From: a phage | Length of the DNA: 64,000 bases | Sequence record: PZ172995.1 | Reading direction: 5' to 3' (one strand) | Part shown: piece by piece, positions 18,349 through 64,000 of the stretch | Layout of the letters: each line of letters begins with the position of its first letter | How positions within the stretch are numbered: the stretch's first letter is position 1 | Notes under the pieces: model-generated | What the model saw: the letters and a program-made list of their open reading frames with translations, nothing else | Told to the model about the DNA's origin: nothing | Database searches by the model: none | Translations under genes and position numbers: made by a program

Positions 18349-18678
18349 TTAATCTGCCAACCTTAAGTTAAAATTAACACCAAATTTTTCGCATACTTCC
18401 AACATAAACTCAAGCGAGACATTACCAGTGAGATTGATTATGTTGGATACACGAGCCTGAGAGATACCACAAATTTTAGCAACTTGCTCTTGAGAAAGAC
18501 CTCTGGATTTAATCTCTCTCTTAAAACGATGTGCAACGAAATCTCTCATTTCGTCTACATCCATTGGACAAATATAACTCTCCATTTCAGCTTCTCTGTC
18601 AGCCTCCCAATCATCTTGTGGAGCATAAGGGTCAAAAACCTCATTCATCTTTCTTCTTCCGTTTGCGTGAAGTGTCAA
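18349..18678 (-). CDS. HTH (XRE-like) DNA-binding protein
   Basis: 109 aa; C-terminal region LSQEQVAKICGISQARVSNIIN resembles helix-turn-helix. Confidence 0.5.
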   Translation of the reverse strand: MTLHANGRRKMNEVFDPYAPQDDWEADREAEMESYICPMDVDEMRDFVAHRFKREIKSRGLSQEQVAKICGISQARVSNIINLTGNVSLEFMLEVCEKFGVNFNLRLAD

Positions 18679-26416: not shown

Positions 26417-26581
26417 ACATTACTGCAAAAAATTATAAAAAGCAAGTTGACAATGTACTTGACAAGGTGTTAATCTTTGCGAAGTGGGTTTTTACTTAAA
26501 AGGTTACTTAACAGTTTAACTATACAGATACTTTAAAACTCTTAAAAGATTATTTAATAGCTTTTAAAAAGCTTTAAAGTA

Positions 26582-26600
26582 TAACGTATAGAATACGTTA
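26582..26600. promoter_or_regulatory. 19-bp perfect palindrome (candidate operator) in divergent promoter region
   Basis: TAACGTATAGAATACGTTA in the 227-bp gap between divergent DNA polymerase (-) and 26644 (+) genes; two TTGACA hexamers at ~26447 and ~26459 nearby. Confidence 0.4.
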
Positions 26601-26643
26601 AGATAAAAGATTAAAACTTAATAGTTACTTAAAAGAGGCTTAC

Positions 26644-51564: not shown

Positions 51565-51624
51565 TTTGTATTTTGTGCAGAGTGCTGTATAATTGTTGTC
51601 ACGATAAACTAAACAGGAGAACCA

Positions 51625-55179: not shown

Positions 55180-55965
55180 ATGGGTATTGTAAAAATCATC
55201 AATGGGGATATCTTCTCCGCATTTGATAAAGGTAAGTTTGATATTATTGGTCACGGTTGCAACTGTATGAATTTAATGGGCGCAGGTATCGCTGACAAGA
55301 TTTCTAAACTTTACCCAAAAGCATATGAGACTGATACAGAAGTCTATCTGTATGCAGGTGGTATAGGTCACAAACCATGTGAAAATTTACTAGGCAATTT
55401 CTCTGTAGCACGTTTAGAACAAGGCCGTATAGCTAACCTTTACACTCAGCTTAAGACTGGTAAAGATGCCCGATACAGTGCTTTAGAGTCATCTTTGAAA
55501 CAACTTAACAGATACTGTGAAGTCAATCAGTTGAAGAAAGTTGGGTTACCTATGATTGGTGCAGGTATCGGTGGACTAGACTCTCAAGCCGTCACAGTCA
55601 TCATTAATCAGGTGATGAAGAGTGTAGATGTGTATCTGTATGTCTATGAAGGAGAGATGTACCACAAGTTACGCTCAGGTTGGAAGAACTACTGTGAACC
55701 AGAATACTTTGCTGGTGTAGTAGTGTTCACTAATGATGTAGTTACCCTCTTCAGACGAAGAAAAGGCAAGATACATCAAAGTAACCCTCCGGTTGAAAAG
55801 ATGTCTCTAAGTAACGCTCTAGTTACCCACCTGTCGAAGAGCAATCACAGAATTGCAGTAACATTTGGCAGTGATGCAGATACATATATCTATGCAAGAA
55901 CTGATGAGGATGTTGAGGAAATTTTCTCTTCACCGGAAGTAACCTTCTTAGACGCAAAGAACTAA
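55180..55965 (+). CDS. macrodomain protein (TARG1/DarG-like ADP-ribose binding/hydrolase fold)
   Basis: 261 aa; N-terminal IINGDIF...DIIGHGCNCMNLMGAGIA and later GLPMIGAGIGGLD match TARG1-type macrodomain motifs. Confidence 0.6.
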   Translation: MGIVKIINGDIFSAFDKGKFDIIGHGCNCMNLMGAGIADKISKLYPKAYETDTEVYLYAGGIGHKPCENLLGNFSVARLEQGRIANLYTQLKTGKDARYSALESSLKQLNRYCEVNQLKKVGLPMIGAGIGGLDSQAVTVIINQVMKSVDVYLYVYEGEMYHKLRSGWKNYCEPEYFAGVVVFTNDVVTLFRRRKGKIHQSNPPVEKMSLSNALVTHLSKSNHRIAVTFGSDADTYIYARTDEDVEEIFSSPEVTFLDAKN

Positions 55966-56034
55966 GAAACTCTGTAGAATATTCACAATAGGTTAAGCCT
56001 TTCTTATCTGGTAAATTTTTCAGGTAAGGAGGGC

Positions 56035-56234
56035 TTTTTCATTTCAGGATTGTGCAGGTAGAGTTCTGGACAGAAATCTGTAGAGAAAATTTTGAACTCC
56101 AAAGAGAAAATTCATTTTCAAACTGTGCAGGTAATCTCCAAAGAGCTTTTTCATTTTCAAAACGTGCAGACCCCGCTCAGGTCGGGCAAGAAAAATCATT
56201 TTAGAATTGTGCAGGTAGGTGGGTGCAGGTGGGG
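56035..56234. repeat. cluster of four to five direct repeats (~25-bp unit TTTTCATTTTCAAA-yTGTGCAGGTA)
   Basis: Copies at ~56035-56060, 56111-56133, 56146-56170, 56193-56217, partial 56218-56234, in a 500-bp gene-free gap. Confidence 0.65.
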
Positions 56235-56471
56235 ATGTCGCCATTTCTCACAAGGCTACCACATCTGAAAAGAAAAGTCAACAGAAAAATTTGTAGCGGA
56301 TTGAAAAATAATTCTTGATTGTAGTTCTGTTTTGTGGTAGTCGCGTGCACCCGTTTCATTACAATTTTTGCAAAAAATATTTTTAAAATTCCTATTGACT
56401 CTTTGAGTATGGTTATCTAATATTTGCATCAGACGGGCAATCAAGCCCACTTCCTAAACTGGAGAATCAAA

Positions 56472-56678
56472 ATGCTTTACAGTCGTGAATTGATGGTTAC
56501 AACTAACGTTAACACAAAGGTAAAACGTTTTTATATGCAAGTGTGCGGCGCATGGCGTAGAATATCAGAAGCTGACTATTGCAACTATGTAGAGACGGCT
56601 ATTAATTCTAATTGCTACCTTACAATAAACACTAAGAAGTTTACAAGACAGACAGCAATTTACTACTACGATAAATAA
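56472..56678 (+). CDS. small early protein
   Basis: Start set at MLYSRE... after RBS CTGGAGAATCAAAATG (ORF-track frame 56424..56678). Confidence 0.45.
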   Translation: MLYSRELMVTTNVNTKVKRFYMQVCGAWRRISEADYCNYVETAINSNCYLTINTKKFTRQTAIYYYDK

Positions 56679-56679
56679 A

Positions 56680-56769
56680 AAAGTACTTTACAAGGGGCTT
56701 AAAAGCTGATATCTTAAGCCCCAGATAAAGAGCTTTACTAAATTAACCCTTAAACTAGGAGATTCAAAA
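56680..56769 (+). promoter_or_regulatory. early intergenic cassette type 1 (stem-loop + AGATAAAGAGCTTTAC + SD)
   Basis: AGTACTTTACA, hairpin GGGGCTTAAAAGCTGATATCTTAAGCCCC (56694-56722), AGATAAAGAGCTTTAC, CCTTAAACTAGGAGATTCAAAAATG. Confidence 0.6.
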
Positions 56770-57150
56770 ATGGCTTATCGTGCACCGAAATTCATCAACA
56801 AAGACAACTTCCGCAACGCACTGGAGAAGTCACTTGGTGAAAATTTTAAAGGTAACATTATCGTTGTTCACGTATTCAATTTTAAGTATGATGTAAACGG
56901 GAATAGAATCAACCATTACACAGCAACCATGTTAGATGGTACGCTATCAAGTGAAAAAGCTGTACTGAATGCACTTGCAGGACGTGGTAAAAACCTGATA
57001 AGATGCGATAAGAGACGTTATCAGGGTGGCGCATATGGTTATGATGATGCTGTTTATCATCTTGAAAATATGGGCTATTCAGTGGAAAAAGCTGGAGTGT
57101 CTCAAATAATCGGCAGTGACGGCTATGTGACAATTTTCAAAATTAACTAA
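56770..57150 (+). CDS. small early protein
   Basis: 126 aa, preceded by conserved AGGAGATTCAAAAATG. Confidence 0.5.
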   Translation: MAYRAPKFINKDNFRNALEKSLGENFKGNIIVVHVFNFKYDVNGNRINHYTATMLDGTLSSEKAVLNALAGRGKNLIRCDKRRYQGGAYGYDDAVYHLENMGYSVEKAGVSQIIGSDGYVTIFKIN

Positions 57151-57151
57151 T

Positions 57152-57238
57152 AAAGTACTTTACAGGGGGCTTATAGTTCGATAAAGTAAGCCCCAGATAA
57201 AGAGCTTTACCACTAAATCCTAAATTGGAGATTCAAAA
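57152..57238 (+). promoter_or_regulatory. early intergenic cassette type 1
   Basis: Hairpin GGGGGCTTAT...GTAAGCCCC (~57166-57194) + AGATAAAGAGCTTTACCACTAAATCCTAAATTGGAGATTCAAAAATG. Confidence 0.6.
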
Positions 57239-57529
57239 ATGGCTATTATTAAAAACGTTGTAATTCCTGCAAAAACTCGTGATGACGCTCGCATCATGGC
57301 GAAAAAGTTAGGCGGGAAAGTGGTTGACAACGGAAAACAAACTGCTGTAAGGTGGAACGTGAAGGCGGATAAACAAATGAATTTAAAAAATTCACCAATA
57401 AACCTTTTTACATGTGTAAACACTATCGGGAAAACGAATGTATACACTAAAAAGGCATATATCAGACGCATCGCCATGACGTCACCTATTCGGACAATGA
57501 GAAGTCATGCAAAGCTGAAAATTAAGTAA
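57239..57529 (+). CDS. small early protein
   Basis: 96 aa after conserved SD context. Confidence 0.5.
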   Translation: MAIIKNVVIPAKTRDDARIMAKKLGGKVVDNGKQTAVRWNVKADKQMNLKNSPINLFTCVNTIGKTNVYTKKAYIRRIAMTSPIRTMRSHAKLKIK

Positions 57530-57530
57530 T

Positions 57531-57619
57531 AGAGTACTTTACAGGGGGCTTAAAAGCTGATATCTTAAGCCCCAGATAAAGAGCTTTACCACTCAATCCT
57601 TAAACTAGGAGATTCAAAA
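57531..57619 (+). promoter_or_regulatory. early intergenic cassette type 1
   Basis: Hairpin GGGGGCTTAAAAGCTGATATCTTAAGCCCC (57545-57573), near-identical to copy at 56694. Confidence 0.6.
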
Positions 57620-58132
57620 ATGAAAACTGTAGACGCTACCTTTGAAGTTGTAAAAGAAAAATTTTCCATCATTTACGAAGCTGTCAATTGCTACGAAGCA
57701 AGCCATAATCTTGATAATTGGAAGTTTACAGATGACCATCAAGGCGGTGTGACTATTAAAAACCCCAACTGTCAGCGTAATGGATTTAAATATGCAATTC
57801 CTTTACATTACAGCCTTAAACAGCTTTCAATTGACTATGCAAAACAAGGCCGGGAAAATCCATCGAAAGAGGCTTACATCAGCTTACAGAAAGAACTAGA
57901 AAGAGATTTAGAGGCTTCAGAATATAACATCGCCGCGAAAGTTGTAGATGCAAACGGTAGCACGGTTTTAGAGAGTTTTTATATTGGTTATGCTTTCGAT
58001 TGGTGCTACAGTGACGGCGATGATTTAGATGACAGACTAAAAGAGGAAGTGAACAACGCAGACGCAGAATCTGAAGTATTAGAACGCTTGGAAGCATTAA
58101 AAGATTCAGTGATGAATATCTTTAAGAACTAA
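57620..58132 (+). CDS. small early acidic protein
   Basis: 170 aa, D/E-rich C-terminal half. Confidence 0.5.
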   Translation: MKTVDATFEVVKEKFSIIYEAVNCYEASHNLDNWKFTDDHQGGVTIKNPNCQRNGFKYAIPLHYSLKQLSIDYAKQGRENPSKEAYISLQKELERDLEASEYNIAAKVVDANGSTVLESFYIGYAFDWCYSDGDDLDDRLKEEVNNADAESEVLERLEALKDSVMNIFKN

Positions 58133-58133
58133 A

Positions 58134-58223
58134 TAGACCTCTTTACACGGGGCTAACAAGCGGATATGATAGCCCCAGATAAAGAGATTTATCAAATTAA
58201 CCCTTAAACTAGGAGATTCAAAA
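58134..58223 (+). promoter_or_regulatory. early intergenic cassette type 1 (variant)
   Basis: Hairpin GGGGCTAACAAGCGGATATGATAGCCCC (~58149-58176) + AGATAAAGAGATTTATC + CCTTAAACTAGGAGATTCAAAAATG. Confidence 0.55.
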
Positions 58224-58520
58224 ATGAAATTATCAAATAAAGTTAGGGAAAACCTTAGCAAATTACTCAACAAAATTGATTTTATAGAGACATCAAGGAA
58301 TAGTCATGATGTTATGGAATGGTTACACGGCAAAATAAAAGGCCGTCGTGTAGTGATTTGCTTATGGAATAGTTGCAGGGAGTATAAAAAGCCTGTATTG
58401 CAAATTAATGTTTATGATGATACTTTTAAAAGTCCTGTAAAGTCTAAAAGCGATTTATTAGAATCCTATGAGATAACTGTAAATGGCAAAGTATCACGTA
58501 AAGAGGAAACACCATGTTAA
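58224..58520 (+). CDS. small early protein
   Basis: 98 aa after conserved SD context. Confidence 0.5.
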   Translation: MKLSNKVRENLSKLLNKIDFIETSRNSHDVMEWLHGKIKGRRVVICLWNSCREYKKPVLQINVYDDTFKSPVKSKSDLLESYEITVNGKVSRKEETPC

Positions 58521-58846
58521 TGACTGGTATCACTGCAATCATTGCCATTTTCGCGCTATATAAGGCATATAAAGCCTATAATCTAGCAAATAAGGCAATC
58601 ACACAGCAAGTTAGCAATAACCTTGTAGAGAGCTTTCTAGGGCGTTTAAGTGATGAGCAAATAAAGCGGCTAGAGATGAGCTTCAGATATAAAGCGAAAA
58701 CCTATCAGATAAGTGACATCTTCAAAGATGATTTCCAGTTAGTTGATGATTATAATTCTCTGATAAATGCTTTAAACATCAGTGACTTGAAAGACTATCA
58801 CGCTGTAATTGTTCAAGAATTGAGCAAACGAAAACAAAGTGTTTGA
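58514..58846 (+). CDS. small early membrane protein
   Basis: 110 aa; N-terminal hydrophobic segment (MLMTGITAIIAIFALY); stop overlaps TTGACA of next cassette. Confidence 0.45.
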   Translation: MLMTGITAIIAIFALYKAYKAYNLANKAITQQVSNNLVESFLGRLSDEQIKRLEMSFRYKAKTYQISDIFKDDFQLVDDYNSLINALNISDLKDYHAVIVQELSKRKQSV

Positions 58847-58937
58847 CACTGATTTTTAGATAGGTTAAATTACACATCAACGGGGAGGGAATGACCTTCC
58901 CCACTAAATAAAGTCCTTAAACTAGGAGATTCTAAAA
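58843..58937 (+). promoter_or_regulatory. early intergenic cassette type 2 (TTGACA-N17-TAAATT promoter + 5' stem-loop + SD)
   Basis: TTGACA 58843-58848, TAAATT 58866-58871, hairpin GGGGAGGGAATGACCTTCCCC (~58881-58902), SD AGGAGATTCTAAAAATG. Confidence 0.6.
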
Positions 58938-59096
58938 ATGTTTTGTGCAGGTGATAAAGTTGTCTGGAATGATATAGATGACGGTTTATGTACGAAAGTT
59001 GTTGTTATCTTAGAAATTGATTATATCACTGGTGTTGCAACTGTAGCAGATAATGATATAATCTTTGATGTCTTAATTAGTGAACTGTCAAAATAA
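58938..59096 (+). CDS. small early protein (52 aa), not in supplied ORF track
   Basis: ATG after conserved cassette SD; translation MFCAGDKVVWNDIDDGLCTK... Confidence 0.4.
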   Translation: MFCAGDKVVWNDIDDGLCTKVVVILEIDYITGVATVADNDIIFDVLISELSK

Positions 59097-59121
59097 AGTC
59101 CTTAAACTAGGAGATTCAAAA

Positions 59122-59394
59122 ATGTACACTACTAACAACGGTCGCACTTTAAATGTAACCCTACGCCACTATGTGAACGGTGTAATGCACTTCGAGGATT
59201 TACAAGCTGAACAACATATATTGGATTGGCAACTTGCAGGACTCCAAAAAACTGCTACCGGATACGGGAAAAAGATTCCAACTAGCTGGAAAGTATACTA
59301 CGAAGGCCGTTTGCGTAGAATTTATCAAGATGTATGCGGCAATAGCGCATCAAGTTACATCATAGTAAAAGGCAAAAAGCTGCATTTAGCATAA
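59122..59394 (+). CDS. small early protein
   Basis: Start set at MYTTNNGRT... after AGGAGATTCAAAAATG (ORF-track frame 59080..59394 begins upstream with GTG). Confidence 0.45.
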   Translation: MYTTNNGRTLNVTLRHYVNGVMHFEDLQAEQHILDWQLAGLQKTATGYGKKIPTSWKVYYEGRLRRIYQDVCGNSASSYIIVKGKKLHLA

Positions 59395-59395
59395 A

Positions 59396-59479
59396 GTACT
59401 TTACAAGGGGCTTATAAATCTGTACAGTAAGCCCCAGATAAAGAGCTTTACCACTAAATCCTAAATTGGAGATTCAAAA
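59396..59479 (+). promoter_or_regulatory. early intergenic cassette type 1
   Basis: Hairpin GGGGCTTATAAATCTGTACAGTAAGCCCC (59407-59435) + AGATAAAGAGCTTTACCACTAAATCCTAAATTGGAGATTCAAAAATG. Confidence 0.6.
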
Positions 59480-59884
59480 ATGGCTATTAATAATCGTGAG
59501 TTATCTATCTTAAAAGCACGTTTGACCGTTAACCGGATTAATGTTATCACATCAGCAGCACCGGATGAAACACTGCAAAACATTATTGGGAAGATTCAAA
59601 GTGTTATCTTAGACGTTGAAAGCGTAAAAAACTCATTGGCTGACGTTGCAGCCGGTATCACGCTAGACGGTGCACAACATGAGATGGCTGACATGTTAGG
59701 CAAATCAAAGGTAATGAATAAAGAATTAGACTTGAAAATGTTTCGATTTGCTGTTAAAGTGTGGCTATCCGTCGAGTATGACGCTAATTTTGCAATCGCT
59801 GATTTCTTTGCCACTTGGTTACAACGTAACTTAACAAATCATGATTTCCGTGATGTCTGTGATGCAATCTACGCAGAACTTTAA
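59480..59884 (+). CDS. small early protein
   Basis: 134 aa after conserved SD context. Confidence 0.5.
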   Translation: MAINNRELSILKARLTVNRINVITSAAPDETLQNIIGKIQSVILDVESVKNSLADVAAGITLDGAQHEMADMLGKSKVMNKELDLKMFRFAVKVWLSVEYDANFAIADFFATWLQRNLTNHDFRDVCDAIYAEL

Positions 59885-59891
59885 AAAGATG

Positions 59892-59984
59892 TTGACACTG
59901 ATTTTTAGATAGATTAAATTACTCATCAACGGGGAGGCAATAACCTCCCTACTAAATAAAGTCCTTAAACTAGGAGATTCTAAA
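59892..59984 (+). promoter_or_regulatory. early intergenic cassette type 2
   Basis: TTGACA 59892-59897, TAAATT 59915-59920, hairpin GGGGAGGCAATAACCTCCC (~59931-59949); near-identical to cassette at 58843. Confidence 0.6.
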
Positions 59985-60182
59985 ATGGCTATTATTAACG
60001 GCTTAACCATTGAAACAACACACATCAAAGATATCAAAGTTGGTGATGTAGTCCTTTCCCACGGCGTAGAAAAAACTGTCACTGCAAAGGATATCAAAGA
60101 GGATTCTTTCATGGGTAGAACTCTCTTCGGTGATTCTTATTGCTTAGGTTATCTTGCAGTTTTAAAAGTTGTCAAAAATTAA
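59985..60182 (+). CDS. small early protein
   Basis: 65 aa after conserved SD. Confidence 0.45.
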   Translation: MAIINGLTIETTHIKDIKVGDVVLSHGVEKTVTAKDIKEDSFMGRTLFGDSYCLGYLAVLKVVKN

Positions 60183-60183
60183 G

Positions 60184-60274
60184 TAATAAAGTACTTTACA
60201 AGGGGCTTAAAAAGTTGGTATCTTAAGCCCCAGATAAAGAGCTTTACACAGTCCTTAAACTAGGAGATTCAAAA
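60184..60274 (+). promoter_or_regulatory. early intergenic cassette type 1
   Basis: Hairpin GGGGCTTAAAAAGTTGGTATCTTAAGCCCC (60203-60231) + AGATAAAGAGCTTTACAC + CCTTAAACTAGGAGATTCAAAAATG. Confidence 0.6.
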
Positions 60275-60817
60275 ATGAAATGCTTTCACGGTACTACTCA
60301 AGAAAACTTCACCAACCTGATTAATAACGGTGATAAACCATCAGGCGCATGGAATTGTTCGGATATGGATGGCAATTTTTACGTTTATCCAGAAAATAAA
60401 ATCTATGGCGACGATGAGGAAGAAATAATCTCTGAAGGCATTCAACAAGCTTTAGGCAATGCCACTATAACGGCAGCTTTTCAGATGAAAACTCAAAACA
60501 TTGTTATCTTGGAACTTGATATTCCAGAGGATGAGTTGAATGATGATTATTCTTGTGATAATATGTCGAGCGTGGCAAGTTTTACAGAGTATTTCGATAT
60601 AAGCTGGATTAAAAAGGTTTACATCACTGAATTTAATGCTATGTTTTCGCCTTTTTGTCTCCCTTCACTGGATAACCCAAATTTAAACTATATTGACGAG
60701 TCTCTGGAACTTCTCGCTAAAAGTGTTCAACAATCAGACAGTATTCAGGTTTTTTGTGACATCATGGATACACTAACAGGAAACATCATAGAAAGTGATT
60801 TGAAGAGCTTTTTATAA
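60275..60817 (+). CDS. early protein
   Basis: 180 aa, acidic; no motif recognised. Confidence 0.5.
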   Translation: MKCFHGTTQENFTNLINNGDKPSGAWNCSDMDGNFYVYPENKIYGDDEEEIISEGIQQALGNATITAAFQMKTQNIVILELDIPEDELNDDYSCDNMSSVASFTEYFDISWIKKVYITEFNAMFSPFCLPSLDNPNLNYIDESLELLAKSVQQSDSIQVFCDIMDTLTGNIIESDLKSFL

Positions 60818-60883
60818 TAACCTATACAATCACCTTATAAATACTGATTAGCCCCTCACAGGGGCTTTTAGGAGGCCTAAATC

Positions 60884-61117
60884 ATGCTTACAACCATTTA
60901 TCTCATCCTTTCTATTTGTAATGGTCATTCATGCGATTTTAAAGGGCTTGAGGAGTTTACAGGGAGTAAAGAAAATGCCGTTCAAGTGTGCCAGATAGCA
61001 AGGCAAGACTATCCCGCCAGTGATGATATACAATGTTACTTTAAGACAGAAGATAATGACGGCGTTTATTTTGATAGCGTAGATGGTCAATATGAAATTA
61101 TCATTGAAAAAGACTAG
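60884..61117 (+). CDS. small early protein with N-terminal hydrophobic segment
   Basis: 77 aa; MLTTIYLILSICNGHSC... signal-like N-terminus. Confidence 0.4.
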   Translation: MLTTIYLILSICNGHSCDFKGLEEFTGSKENAVQVCQIARQDYPASDDIQCYFKTEDNDGVYFDSVDGQYEIIIEKD

Positions 61118-61129
61118 ACAAGCCTGATA

Positions 61130-61206
61130 AAAGTCTGTAAATTGTCAATCAACGGGAGGTAATAACCTCCCCACTAAGTAAAGTCCTTAAACTAGGAGAT
61201 TCAAAA
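61130..61206 (+). promoter_or_regulatory. early intergenic cassette type 2 (variant lacking clear TTGACA)
   Basis: GTCTGTAAATTGTCAATCAACGGGAGGTAATAACCTCCCCACTAAGTAAAGTCCTTAAACTAGGAGATTCAAAAATG; hairpin ~61154-61172. Confidence 0.55.
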
Positions 61207-61548
61207 ATGGCTTATGTAACCGTAATTACCGATAAAGATGGTTCATCTTGGTCAACTCAAGTAAGTGATAAGATGTCACCTATGCAGTGCCTAAAATACT
61301 TTGAGCAATGGAACAAAGGTGAAGAAACAAGCCCCTTCCAAGTGATGCAGATTATCCATACAGATAACGAAGGGAATAAAACTGTTTTGAATAGTGAGTA
61401 CTATGCAACCAGATTCGAAACGAGAAGTAAAGCAATGAAACTCTTACGTGAATCCGGTTACTCTCATATTGCCTCACTAATCTGGGATGACCTGCTAAAA
61501 AGTCAGCGTATCAGCTATGTAAAACCTGAAAAAACATTCATCAGTTAA
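61207..61548 (+). CDS. small early protein
   Basis: 113 aa after conserved SD. Confidence 0.5.
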   Translation: MAYVTVITDKDGSSWSTQVSDKMSPMQCLKYFEQWNKGEETSPFQVMQIIHTDNEGNKTVLNSEYYATRFETRSKAMKLLRESGYSHIASLIWDDLLKSQRISYVKPEKTFIS

Positions 61549-61699
61549 TCAATAACTTACAAAAAACTTTTAAAAAAGTGTTGACAATCCCTCTTGACAT
61601 TGGTAACTTTGTTCGAGGGGGTTTATCTAAAAGGGATTAACTTAAAAGATTCTTTATAGATAAACTTAAAAAATTGCTTGCAATCAGCTATCAAAACAA

Positions 61700-61769
61700 G
61701 TAAATTACTAATCAACGGGAGGTAATGACCTCCCCACTAAGTAAAGTCCTTAAACTAGGAGATTCAAAA
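61700..61769 (+). promoter_or_regulatory. early intergenic cassette type 2
   Basis: TAAATTACTAATCAACGGGAGGTAATGACCTCCCC (hairpin ~61717-61735) + ACTAAGTAAAGTCCTTAAACTAGGAGATTCAAAAATG; TTGACA boxes at ~61572-61600 upstream. Confidence 0.55.
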
Positions 61770-62300
61770 ATGAACAAGTTCAAAGCTATCAATTACATTC
61801 GTTCGAGTAGCATCATGTCAAAACCTGTTAAAGATACCTATGAATTTCGTTGCAATGGGGTGCATTTTGCAACCATCACCAAATCAGAAAACGGAGCTTA
61901 TTACATCCATCGCCGTAATGTTGCAACCGTTGTTGTCTCTCATTTTATGCAAGCTGTCGCGGAACTTCTCCCGATGTTTTTAGGGCTTTACTTGGATGAG
62001 TGTAAAAACGTTCACAATCACGTTAAAAACCTTTTAAACAGCTATAAAATGGCTTATGAACGTTCTATCAAGTCATTGAACAAGTTTTACAACGCACCTG
62101 AAAATACTGTGTCAATAGCCTATGGTGTAAGCGGTGAAATGGTAAACTTATCCAATGTGGAAGAAATCAAGCTGCATGATTTACGCCCTAACGGTTACGC
62201 TAAAACCATCGGTGAAGGTTTAACTTTCAATATCAAGAACTTAGAAAAAACTTTAAAAGATATTGAAAAAGATATTGACGAGACAATCAAAAGTCTGTAA
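61770..62300 (+). CDS. early protein
   Basis: Start set at MNKFKAIN... after cassette SD (ORF-track frame 61725..62300). Confidence 0.5.
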   Translation: MNKFKAINYIRSSSIMSKPVKDTYEFRCNGVHFATITKSENGAYYIHRRNVATVVVSHFMQAVAELLPMFLGLYLDECKNVHNHVKNLLNSYKMAYERSIKSLNKFYNAPENTVSIAYGVSGEMVNLSNVEEIKLHDLRPNGYAKTIGEGLTFNIKNLEKTLKDIEKDIDETIKSL

Positions 62301-62366
62301 ATTGTCAATCAACGGGGAGGGAATGACCTTCCCCACTAAACAAAGTCCTAAACTGGAGTTATCAAG
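62301..62366 (+). promoter_or_regulatory. early intergenic cassette type 2
   Basis: GTCTGTAAATTGTCAATCAACGGGGAGGGAATGACCTTCCCC (hairpin ~62314-62334) + ACTAAACAAAGTCCTAAACTGGAGTTATCAAGATG. Confidence 0.55.
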
Positions 62367-62630
62367 ATGGAAAACGTCGAACTGACCACACTTTTACAAA
62401 TTGCAACCGACAAAGAGGATGTAGCATTATTCCACCGTATCGAAAGTGATTTGTTCAATGGTGAAATCATTAAAGAATCTTACGAAGTGGTCGGATTCAA
62501 AGATGGTAAATCATTTGGATTCTTTGACCTCGACAAAGGCAACGCTATTACAAAGTATGATGTTTTATCTTGTGAGATTCTGACAAAATACAACGAAAAA
62601 AGACTTGCAACATACGCCAACATGCAGTAA
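62367..62630 (+). CDS. small early protein
   Basis: 87 aa after cassette. Confidence 0.5.
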   Translation: MENVELTTLLQIATDKEDVALFHRIESDLFNGEIIKESYEVVGFKDGKSFGFFDLDKGNAITKYDVLSCEILTKYNEKRLATYANMQ

Positions 62631-62695
62631 ATTACTAATCAACGGGAGGGATAACCTCCCTACTAAGTAAAGTCCTTAAACTAGGAGATTCTAAA
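62631..62695 (+). promoter_or_regulatory. early intergenic cassette type 2
   Basis: TAAATTACTAATCAACGGGAGGGATAACCTCCC (hairpin ~62644-62660) + TACTAAGTAAAGTCCTTAAACTAGGAGATTCTAAAATG. Confidence 0.55.
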
Positions 62696-63049: not shown

Positions 63050-63700
63050 GAATCTATCCCATACCTTAAAAGCAATAACTCTATAGCTTACTCTATAGCC
63101 CCTTATCAAATCAACTTAAATATAAGCCCATAACCCGAAAGGGAAGGGCAACCATTTAAACGCTCTATAAAGCCCTATAACAGCCTTATCAACCTAACTT
63201 AAGGGATTGCATTACCTCACCCTTAAAAGCCCTTTATAAAGCTTCCCAGAGCCTTAAAAGAATCTTATAAGGGTGTAAGCTTTATTATCTCGTTAGCTAT
63301 CTTGTGAATGGTTAAACAACCCCTTGATAGTAACTGAAAAGTATGTTATAGGGGCTATAAAGTTACTTTGAAGTAGTTTAAAAGTTACTTAAAAGTTACG
63401 TAAATGCTAGCCCCCTTAACATTTTCTTAACAATTTCTTAACAATCCCTACATAGTTATGCTTTTAAGGTACTTGTTAGCAACTTGTTAGCCCCTTGTTA
63501 AATCTCTGTTAAAACCACGTAAAAGCCTTGTAAGAGCCTTTGACATAGCCTATAAAGCCTCTGTAAAGCCCTATAAATAGCTTTCTGTATAGTTGGGGTG
63601 TAATTACTAGGAAGAGACTAAAAAGAGCTTATAAGGAGCTATAAAGGGCTTTTAAGAGGGCTATTTAAAGGGTCACTAAGAGAGAAAGGGAACGATAAGA
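63050..63700. repeat. dispersed short direct repeats of CTATAAAG(C/G)C family in gene-free region
   Basis: About ten copies or variants (CTCTATAAAGCCCTATAA, CTTTATAAAGC, GGCTATAAAGTTAC, CCTATAAAGCCTCTGTAAAGCCCTATAAATAGC, GAGCTATAAAGGGC ...). Confidence 0.6.
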
Positions 63701-63995
63701 AAAGAGATAGTGACCATGTTAATAGCTTGTTAAAAAGATTAAACACTTGTTAGAAACTTGTTAATTATCTTAACAAAATAACTCTTTAAAATTAACTTGT
63801 TAGCTCTTGTTAGTCATCTGTTAAGACACTGTAAAGCCTATGTATCAACTGTTAAGAAACTGTTAAGTTCTTGTTAAAACTGTTAAGAATCTGTTAAGAC
63901 CTCTGAAGAGATGTTAAGAGGTTGTAAGAACTGTTAAGAGATTGTTAATGATATTTTAAAATTCTGCAAAGGGGATGTTACAGGGCTGTTAAGGG
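63420..63995. repeat. iteron-like array of CTTGTTA(A/G) / CTGTTAAG repeats, ~11-13 bp periodicity
   Basis: Two inverted copies (TTCTTAACAA x2, ~63428-63450), four copies ~63471-63510, and at least 15 copies from ~63725 to 63995 (e.g. CAACTGTTAAGAAACTGTTAAGTTCTTGTTAAAACTGTTAAGAATCTGTTAAGAC). Confidence 0.7.
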
Positions 63996-64000
63996 CTACC

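What the first reader, a model, noticed from the sequence alone, without database searches (positions are those of the whole stretch)
56035..56234. Direct repeat cluster (TTTTCATTTTCAAA-TGTGCAGGTA) in a 500-bp gap between middle and early gene blocks
Seen in sequence: four full and one partial copy of a ~25-bp unit lie within 200 bp, with the TGTGCAGGTA part best conserved and ending in GGTGGGTGCAGGTGGGG. No ORF is present, and the region precedes the first early cassette gene (56472). A related TGTGCAGAGTGCTGTATAAT promoter-like element occurs at 51575-51593. Inference: iterated binding sites for a transcription factor, or origin-like iterons.
Basis: seen in the sequence. Interest (0 to 1): 0.5.

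Follow-up and report, generated by a model that had tools for sequence, protein, structure and literature searches.

The report
Conserved four-copy protein-binding repeat array
A Felix O1-like phage carries one array of four same-direction copies of a two-part DNA motif (TCATTT-7 bases-GTGCA) at the border of its terminal early-gene block; it is conserved across the whole phage subfamily and looks like a docking array for an unidentified DNA-binding protein, but published knockout data show it is dispensable in laboratory hosts.

Summary
The repeat cluster is real. The core TCATTT-N7-GTGCA occurs exactly four times in the window, all on the + strand within 175 bp (0.08 expected). No comparable site exists in the rest of the genome.

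The window is a Felixounavirus (Ounavirinae). The array lies between the intrinsic terminator after the macro-domain gene and the first sigma-70 promoter of the terminal early-gene cassette, about 7.8 kb from the right genome end.

Three to five copies occur in Felixouna-, Susp-, Moogle- and Kolesnikvirus, and in a phage with only about 50% protein identity. Core bases are 95% invariant, against 29% for the N7 spacer and 47% for the early promoter.

It is not the terminal repeat or pac site, which maps to 63418-64000. It is not coding, not a known or structured RNA, and not a sigma-70 promoter array.

The best reading is an array of double-stranded-DNA sites for an unidentified sequence-specific protein. 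I favour a transcriptional boundary or regulatory role (about 0.35) over origin iterons (about 0.25).

Spacing and copy number vary, and barcode insertions inside the array in phage Bas63 are neutral. It is therefore not an essential element.

The 'fifth copy' and the site near 51575 are not supported as members.

The parts
55995..56046 (+). Intrinsic terminator ending the rightward operon (macro-domain gene 55180-55965). Its T-tract forms the T-rich start of repeat unit 1.
   Evidence: Terminator scan: 17-bp stem followed by TTTCATTT. Annotated as a terminator in wV8 and listed as t13 of Felix O1, -21.8 kcal/mol.
56024..56060 (+). Repeat unit 1. Core TCATTT 56039-56044, N7, GTGCA 52-56.
   Evidence: Conserved in register in relatives.
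56097..56133 (+). Repeat unit 2. Head CTCCAAAGAG; core 56112-56129.
56136..56172 (+). Repeat unit 3. Head CTCCAAAGAG; core 56151-56168, followed by GACC rather than GGTA.
56181..56217 (+). Repeat unit 4. Head GTCGGGCAAG; core 56196-56213.
   Evidence: This is the part still alignable to Erwinia phages by blastn.
56218..56280 (.). Lineage-variable segment. It is G-rich here (GGTGGGTGCAGGTGGGG...). Most relatives have a polypyrimidine mirror repeat instead.
   Evidence: Alignment; 29% invariant columns.
56281..56394 (+). Conserved non-coding block (AAAAGTCAACAGAAAAATTTGTAG...TGAAAAATAATTCTTGA), ending in an A/T-rich UP-element-like stretch (about 56364-56392).
   Evidence: Alignment. The 80-bp stretch from 56354 has 22.5% GC, in the lowest 0.2% of the window.
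56395..56471 (+). First early promoter (TTGACT-17-TAATAT, 56395-56423), then a 5' leader with a small hairpin and the ribosome-binding site of the first cassette gene (ATG at 56472).
   Evidence: Promoter scan. The element is conserved in relatives.

Best explanation
The four units are independent, additive binding sites on double-stranded DNA for one sequence-specific protein. Each site is asymmetric and two-part: TCATTT, then a 7-bp A/T-rich spacer, then GTGCA, about 18-20 bp in all. That layout suits a monomer with two DNA-reading modules, or head-to-tail binding. The protein is unidentified and is probably phage-encoded.

The sites all point in the direction of transcription. They sit immediately after the terminator of the long rightward operon and 180-370 bp upstream of the first strong promoter of the terminal early-gene cassette.

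I infer that the bound array forms a boundary or regulatory complex. It could act as a polar roadblock that stops read-through into the early cassette, in the manner of a 'stoperator'. Alternatively it could modulate the first early promoter from upstream.

Shown: the array is real, unique in the genome, under strong purifying selection on two short blocks, not coding, not structured RNA, not a terminus, and dispensable for growth in laboratory hosts.

Inferred: that a protein binds it, which protein, and the boundary or regulatory role.
For: - Non-random and unique in the genome.
- Three to five copies, always in the same orientation and always just after the macro-domain gene, in four Ounavirinae genera and in a divergent uncultured relative with about 50% amino-acid identity.
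- 42 of 44 core columns are invariant across three genera, against 29% for the N7 spacer, 57% between units and 47% for the early promoter and leader.
- Heads and spacers are lineage-specific while the cores are constant.
- Position between terminator and early promoter.
- The early-cassette promoter and its translation-initiation modules occur only to the right of the array.
- Spacing varies (37-45 and 73-77 bp), copy number varies (3-5), and barcode insertions are neutral. This fits independent redundant sites rather than a phased machine.
- The array folds no better than shuffled sequence as RNA or as single-stranded DNA, and has no convincing consensus structure.
Against: - No binding protein is identified. 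The early-cassette proteins have no Pfam or PHROG function. The only recognisable helix-turn-helix protein (18349-18678, minus strand) is of the Cro/C1 type, which usually reads palindromes.
- The sites are far from the promoter, and no copy overlaps it.
- The other early promoters (at least 12) lack the motif.
- A strong intrinsic terminator already stands upstream, so a roadblock would be redundant in this lineage.
- No transcript or binding data exist.
Confidence: 0.35

Rival explanations
1. Iterons of a phage replication origin. An initiator would bind the four direct repeats and open the adjacent A/T-rich stretch, helped by transcription from the strong early promoter.
For: - One cluster per genome of asymmetric 18-20-bp direct repeats in a conserved 500-bp non-coding gap.
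- A very A/T-rich stretch 140 bp downstream (lowest 0.2% GC) and a strong promoter.
- A structure-prone G-rich or mirror-repeat segment lies next to it.
- It sits at the early/middle border. From my own knowledge, the T7 primary origin also sits there, and origins can be individually dispensable in T7 and T4.
Against: - Spacing is irregular and not helically phased, and differs between genera.
- The replisome is T7-like (Toprim + DnaB_C primase-helicase, family A polymerase), with no Rep/O/DnaA-like initiator recognisable.
- There is no DnaA-box or IHF cluster.
- The most A/T-rich non-coding region of the window lies at 26.44-26.64 kb, between the divergent replication genes, and has its own repeated motif.
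- Insertions in the array are neutral in Bas63.
Confidence: 0.25
2. Binding sites for an abundant host protein rather than a phage protein. Candidates are an AraC/XylS-type monomer such as Rob, MarA or SoxS, or a response regulator, recruited to boost or time early transcription.
For: - The core is identical in phages of Escherichia, Salmonella, Citrobacter, Shigella and Erwinia.
- In reverse complement the site reads TGCAC-N7-AAATGA. From my own knowledge, this resembles the two-part GCAC ... AAA layout of the marbox.
Against: - No unit matches the marbox consensus AYNGCACNNWNNRYYAAAYN within 3 mismatches; the second element is one base out of register.
- CRP, Fis, IHF and DnaA consensus scans give nothing repeated.
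- The paired core is absent from Enterobacterales reference genomes.
Confidence: 0.1
3. Tandem phage-specific promoters, or a transcribed RNA element such as a protein or sRNA sponge in the 3' region of the macro-domain gene.
For: - Redundant units that tolerate changes in spacing are typical of tandem promoters.
- Unit heads share AAAGAGCTTT with the leaders of the early transcripts.
- In the divergent relative L065 no terminator hairpin was seen by eye between the gene and the array.
Against: - No sigma-70-type promoter is found in the array.
- By eye, -10-like hexamers on either strand are inconsistent between copies, and there are no sigma-54, -32, -28 or -24 consensus matches.
- The motif occurs nowhere else in the genome, so it is not a general promoter class.
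- No Rfam hit, folding no better than shuffles, and weak alifold z-scores.
Confidence: 0.08
4. A polar barrier tied to the genome end. It could be a signal that pauses DNA entry, like the T5 injection stop signal, or a barrier to exonuclease or replication forks coming from the right terminus. Either way it would mark off the terminal host-takeover block.
For: - The array is 7.8 kb from the right physical end, about 9% of the genome. It lies exactly at the inner edge of the cassette of small genes that each have their own promoter.
- All sites share one orientation.
- T5 has a conserved untranslated repeat region at 7.9% from its end (bioRxiv 10.1101/866236).
Against: - There is no evidence that Felix O1-type phages inject in two steps.
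- The T5 region is 1.2 kb of palindromes, inverted repeats and 8 DnaA boxes; none of these occur here.
- Insertions are neutral.
Confidence: 0.06
5. A functionless relic of tandem duplication of a terminator tail.
For: - Unit 1 overlaps the terminator T-tract.
- Other terminators in the family also end in TTTTTCATTT.
- The array is dispensable in the laboratory.
Against: - Core columns are 95% invariant while the spacers between them are 29% invariant.
- The core is retained in a lineage where the flanking DNA is unalignable and proteins are about 50% identical.
Confidence: 0.03

Closest known systems
Iterons of plasmid and phage origins (lambda ori, P1 oriR, F ori2/RepE)
   Same: Several direct copies of an asymmetric site of about 19 bp, at one locus per replicon, in non-coding DNA next to an A/T-rich stretch and a promoter.
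   Different: The spacing here is irregular (37-77 bp) and not helically phased. No initiator gene is recognisable and the replisome is T7-like. Insertions in the array are tolerated.
'Stoperators' of cluster A mycobacteriophages (from my own knowledge)
   Same: Asymmetric sites oriented with transcription in intergenic DNA. A bound protein blocks elongating RNA polymerase.
   Different: Stoperators are dispersed in tens of copies and are bound by the immunity repressor of temperate phages. Here there is one cluster of four in a virulent phage, and the binder is unknown.
T5 injection-stop region (Repeat Region 3 of the left terminal repeat)
   Same: A conserved untranslated, repeat-rich region at the inner border of a terminal early-gene block, about 8-9% from a genome end. 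It is more conserved than the neighbouring genes.
   Different: The T5 region is about 1.2 kb with palindromes, inverted repeats and 8 DnaA boxes, and lies within a 10-kb terminal repeat. Here the array is 180 bp of simple direct repeats, outside the 0.6-kb terminal repeat, with no DnaA boxes.
Marbox (MarA/SoxS/Rob sites)
   Same: A two-part asymmetric site of about 20 bp with GCAC, a 7-bp A/T-rich spacer and an A-rich second element, read by a monomer with two helix-turn-helix modules.
   Different: The consensus is not met within 3 mismatches, and the second element is out of register by one base. Arrays of four sites 200-370 bp upstream of a promoter are not typical.
T7 primary origin (tandem promoters plus an A/T-rich region)
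   Same: Same kind of replisome. A non-coding element at the early/middle border next to A/T-rich DNA, and individually dispensable.
   Different: The T7 origin is defined by phage-polymerase promoters, not by protein-binding repeats. No promoter is detected in these units.

Membership tests
Iteron-type replication origin | Three or more direct repeats of about 17-22 bp at one locus | tested here: met
   Four copies of an 18-bp two-part core, unique in the genome.
Iteron-type replication origin | Regular, helically phased spacing of the repeats | tested here: not met
   Spacing is 73/39/45 bp here, 75/41/45 in Mooglevirus and 37/37/39 in Kolesnikvirus.
Iteron-type replication origin | A cognate initiator (Rep/O-type) gene in the genome, usually adjacent | tested here: not met
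   Flanking and early proteins have no Pfam or PHROG function. The replisome is Toprim + DnaB_C primase-helicase plus PolA. The tests are sequence-based only, so a novel initiator is not excluded.
Iteron-type replication origin | An adjacent A/T-rich unwinding element | tested here: inconclusive
   A 22.5% GC stretch starts at 56354 (lowest 0.2% of the window), but it coincides with the UP-like element of the promoter. The 26.5-kb region is more A/T-rich.
Iteron-type replication origin | Replication initiates there | not testable with these tools
   This needs marker-frequency or 2D-gel data. Insertions in the array are neutral in Bas63.
Terminal repeat / packaging (pac, cos) site | Coincides with the physical genome ends | tested here: not met
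   The experimentally determined 608-bp terminal repeat of UAB_Phi87 (PMC4837284, Fig. S1) maps to window 63418-64000. The CRP22 record starts with the same repeat.
Sigma-70 promoter array | -35 and -10 hexamers at 16-18 bp spacing in each unit | tested here: not met
   No promoter-like site falls between 56035 and 56234. The nearest is at 56395-56423.
Known non-coding RNA / structured RNA | An Rfam match, or a conserved stable structure | tested here: not met
   No Rfam hit at E<=1. Fold z-scores are +0.5 (DNA) and +1.0 (RNA). Alifold z-scores are -2.1 and -0.6.
T5-type injection stop region | A cluster of DnaA boxes with large inverted repeats and palindromes | tested here: not met
   Only scattered one-mismatch DnaA-like 9-mers, and no cluster (4 found against 1.3 expected from window density). 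There are no long inverted repeats. For T5 features.
T5-type injection stop region | Two-step DNA transfer that stops at the site | not testable with these tools
   No published data were found for Felix O1-like phages.
Marbox (MarA/SoxS/Rob) | Match to AYNGCACNNWNNRYYAAAYN | tested here: not met
   No match within 3 mismatches anywhere in the gap.
Protein-coding gene (as annotated in some records) | Reading frame conserved among relatives | tested here: not met
   Unit spacings differ between genera by non-multiples of 3, and public ORF calls lie on different strands.

The most novel reading that the evidence does not exclude
The array is an orientation-specific barrier bound by an unknown protein with two DNA-reading modules. 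It would mark off a terminal host-takeover module, so that a Felix O1-type myovirus delivers or expresses its genome in stages. This would be a simpler functional counterpart of the T5 injection-stop signal, or a virulent-phage version of stoperators.
Probability: 0.07. Interest if true: 0.75.

Novelty: new member of a known kind. Interest (0 to 1): 0.38.

Why it matters
Felix O1-type phages are widely used for Salmonella and E. coli typing, biocontrol and therapy. How they time transcription and where they start replication are both unknown; the Felix O1 genome paper says so explicitly.

This array is the most strongly conserved non-coding element at the junction between the main rightward operon and the host-takeover cassette. 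I found no description of it in the papers I could search.

It gives a defined, short and dispensable target for finding a regulator or initiator, by pull-down or by deletion in Bas63. Because insertions there are neutral, it may also be a safe landing site for engineering.

Tried and rejected
**Terminal repeat or pac site.** This was suggested by the KhF1 record, whose two ends both lie in this gap. I rejected it. The KhF1 ends are an N-rich assembly overlap, and the measured terminal repeat of UAB_Phi87 maps to 63418-64000.

**Coding repeat peptide.** Units 2-4 are in frame here (39 and 45 bp), but not in other genera.

**Rfam and structured RNA or single-stranded DNA.** Negative.

**Promoters.** The sigma-70 scan found nothing in the array. 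I checked alternative sigma factors and -10-only readings on both strands by eye, and the copies are inconsistent.

**Host-factor consensus sites.** DnaA, IHF, Fis, CRP, Chi and marbox scans gave nothing repeated. An apparent likeness to an OmpR half-site falls in the variable spacer.

**Finding the binder.** Pfam and PHROG searches of 15 early-cassette proteins and of proteins near the replication genes gave no functional assignment, apart from one HTH_3 protein elsewhere in the genome.

**The paired core in other collections.** In viral contigs the only real hits are Ounavirinae and one divergent relative; the rest are coding tandem repeats. Reference bacterial genomes gave no Enterobacterales hits.

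**An analogous array in distant phages.** Two phages with a 40%-identical macro-domain gene have none.

**Literature.** No paper found describes the array. The phiEa21-4 genome paper is not held in the library.

Full report
**What the window is.** A 3-kb query around the finding matches 252 phage records, nearly all Felix O1-like (Felixounavirus, subfamily Ounavirinae). The closest are vB_EcoM_CRP22, Shy and PHB11, at 97-99% identity.

The 608-bp direct terminal repeat of the related phage UAB_Phi87 was determined experimentally (PMC4837284, Fig. S1). It aligns to window 63418-64000. The CRP22 record also begins with that repeat. The window therefore ends at the right physical end of the genome, and the finding lies about 7.8 kb inside it.

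**The observation.** The sequence shows four units on the + strand. The common core is two-part: TCATTT, seven variable bases, then GTGCA. This exact core occurs four times in the window, against 0.08 expected, and no shuffle reaches four.

A weight matrix built from the family scores the four sites at 34-38 bits. The next best site in the window scores 15.6 bits. Nothing reaches 8 bits in the remaining 23.5 kb of the CRP22 genome. So there is one cluster per genome.

The 'fifth partial copy' (56219-56235) shares only TGCAGGT. It lies in a segment that most relatives replace with an unrelated C-rich tract.

The element near 51575 is a one-mismatch core directly after the terminator of rIIB, and it overlaps a sigma-70-like promoter. 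About two such one-mismatch sites are expected by chance, so a relationship cannot be claimed.

**Context.** Upstream lies a macro-domain gene, annotated 'phosphatase' (55180-55965). It is followed by a strong intrinsic terminator, 55995-56046. The same terminator is annotated in wV8 and listed as t13 of Felix O1. Its T-tract is the first part of unit 1.

Downstream of the array come three elements:
- a variable segment (56218-56280);
- a conserved non-coding block ending in an A/T-rich stretch;
- a sigma-70 promoter, TTGACT-17-TAATAT, at 56395-56423, before the first small gene.

From my own memory, the stretch AAAAATATTTTTAAAATTCCTATTGAC resembles the UP element and -35 region of rrnB P1.

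Almost every gene to the right has its own promoter module and a shared translation-initiation module. These modules occur only between 56.7 and 62.7 kb. The array therefore marks the left edge of this cassette.

Felix O1 RT-PCR places several of these genes at 5 minutes and others at 25 minutes after infection. 'Early' is thus broadly but not uniformly supported.

**Conservation.** The gene order macro-domain gene, then gap, then small genes is kept in four genera:
- Felixounavirus;
- Suspvirus (SUSP2);
- Mooglevirus (Moogle and the Sf13-like phages);
- Kolesnikvirus, the Erwinia phages.

All carry three or four copies in the same orientation. In Erwinia phage M7 the units are strictly tandem, at 37, 37 and 39 bp, and read ...TCATTTTCAATTTGTGCATAG.

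A search of viral contigs for two cores in tandem returned only Ounavirinae, chance hits in coding tandem repeats, and one uncultured 88-kb phage, L065. That phage shares about 50% protein identity and gene order with the window. It has five copies after its macro-domain gene, four with the exact or one-mismatch core and one more degenerate.

I aligned nine sequences from three genera, choosing regions by gene coordinates rather than by motif. The share of invariant columns was:

| Region | Invariant columns |
|---|---|
| Core blocks (TCATTT and GTGCA) | 42 of 44 (95%) |
| N7 spacers | 29% |
| Between units | 57% |
| Early promoter and leader | 47% |

The purine-rich heads of the units differ between lineages but are homogeneous within a lineage. 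This pattern indicates selection on two short sequence blocks read in double-stranded DNA.

**What it is not.**
- *Not the terminal repeat or pac site.* The KhF1 record has both ends in this gap, but these are an N-rich assembly overlap.
- *Not coding.* ORFs overlapping the array are annotated on either strand in different records. Unit spacings differ between genera by non-multiples of three.
- *Not a known or structured RNA.* There is no Rfam match. Folding z-scores are +0.5 as DNA and +1.0 as RNA. Consensus folding gives z = -2.1 and -0.6.
- *Not a sigma-70 promoter array*. Hexamers that look like -10 elements on either strand are inconsistent between copies.
- *No repeated host-factor consensus.* DnaA, IHF, CRP, Chi and marbox scans give nothing repeated.
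- *Not an array found in host genomes.* The paired core is absent from Enterobacterales reference genomes.

**Experimental evidence from the literature.** In phage Bas63, which is 97.6% identical across the gap with no net indel, the ORF call bas63_0096 spans the equivalent of window 56044-56199. That runs from the core of unit 1 to the start of unit 4's core.

The PhageMaP study inserted barcodes at 2-4 guide sites per gene. 'Gene 96' scores +0.24 to +0.98 in every replicate seen from the host and defence-system sheets, like its non-essential neighbours. Gene 97, equivalent to 56201-56359, has no row in any of the sheets seen.

The integrity of the array is therefore not needed for growth in laboratory hosts. 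Each insertion leaves at least three units intact, so redundancy could mask an effect.

**How it most likely works.** The core is asymmetric and two-part, and all copies share one orientation. Natural spacing and copy number vary, and insertions are tolerated. These features point to independent, additive sites bound by a protein with two DNA-reading modules or by head-to-tail binding. They argue against a strictly phased machine.

Given the position directly after a terminator and upstream of the first cassette promoter, I favour a transcriptional boundary or regulatory complex (about 0.35).

Origin iterons remain a serious rival (about 0.25). Uniqueness in the genome, neighbouring A/T-rich DNA, a strong promoter and a T7-type replisome all fit. 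Three things weaken it: the lack of phasing, the absence of a recognisable initiator, and a more A/T-rich non-coding candidate at 26.44-26.64 kb with its own repeated motif.

Lesser rivals are host-factor sites, tandem special promoters or an RNA element, an end-related polar barrier like the T5 stop signal, and a neutral relic. The binder could not be identified from Pfam or PHROG searches of the early and replication-neighbour proteins.

**Novelty and verdict.** I found no description of this array in the Felix O1, UAB_Phi87 or comparative Felixounavirus papers, or in full-text searches. It is a new, well-conserved example of a familiar kind of element, a repeated protein-binding site array. 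Its function is unproven and it is dispensable in the laboratory. Interest is moderate.

Noticed in passing
window 63418-64000: This is the direct terminal repeat of the genome, 85% identical to the measured 608-bp repeat of UAB_Phi87. The window ends at the physical right end. The repeat is packed with TGTTAAGA/TCTTAACA and CTTGTAA motifs, which are plausible packaging-protein sites.
   Followed up: partly
window 26491-26635 and 63330-63406: The motif GTTACTTAAAAG is enriched (31 matches at up to 2 mismatches, against 12.4 expected). It clusters in the most A/T-rich non-coding stretch of the window, between the divergent polymerase gene and the + strand block, and again just left of the terminal repeat. 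It is a candidate origin or unwinding element, or a phage-specific promoter class.
   Followed up: no
window 56218-56280; relatives L003, L008, L009, L024 and others: Most relatives carry a perfect polypyrimidine mirror repeat here (CCCCTCTCCCCCTC-TTA-CTCCCCCTCTCCCC). It is prone to triplex formation, and to G-quadruplex formation on the other strand. In the window and two other loci it is replaced by an unrelated 60-bp segment that starts G-rich.
   Followed up: partly
L024, L025 (IMG/VR contigs), L015: Two metagenome contigs end at the same base inside that mirror repeat (...CTCTTACTCC). One runs straight into a Nextera adapter. A third contig is chimeric within the array. The region seems to break assemblies, through either a coverage drop or strain variation.
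   Followed up: no
window 56679-62695: The early cassette is built from two repeated promoter modules. One is TTTACA-17-TATCTT embedded in the hairpin GGGGCTTAAAAGCTGATATCTTAAGCCCC. The other is TTGACA-17-TAAATT followed by a 5' hairpin. Both use a shared ribosome-binding module, CTTAAACTAGGAGATTC. The leader AGATAAAGAGCTTTAC shares AAAGAGCTTT with the heads of the array units.
   Followed up: partly
window 56364-56423: The first early promoter has an A/T-rich upstream stretch (AAAAATATTTTTAAAATTCC). It closely resembles the rrnB P1 UP element as I remember it, which suggests a very strong promoter.
   Followed up: no
window 56066-56090 and 56285-56300: A second small repeat, (T/A)CTG(T/G)A(G/C)AGAAA, occurs twice between units 1 and 2. 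A similar AAATTTGTAGCGG occurs downstream. One perfect Fis-like palindrome, GAGAAAATTTTGAAC, lies at 56083.
   Followed up: no
public records: wV8 gp13, RPN213 gp118, Bas63 0096/0097, Moogle 115: Small 'hypothetical protein' genes are annotated over the array, on different strands in different records. They are probably spurious ORF calls.
   Followed up: yes
KT184313.1 (KhF1), L003/L004: The two ends of this record overlap by about 370 bp within this gap, and one end is full of N. This is an assembly or primer-walking artefact rather than a true terminus.
   Followed up: yes
L065 (IMGVR_UViG_3300045988_063805, positions 1-1700): An uncultured 88-kb relative with no close cultured match has five copies of the core. 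A stretch with about ten TTAACA repeats follows directly, resembling the terminal-repeat motif of Felix O1-like phages.
   Followed up: partly
window 18349-18678 (- strand): This is the only recognisable helix-turn-helix regulator in the window (HTH_3). A gene with the matching annotation ('putative transcriptional regulator', gene 35) scores as essential in Bas63, at about -1.2; I did not check that the two are orthologs. Its targets are unknown.
   Followed up: no
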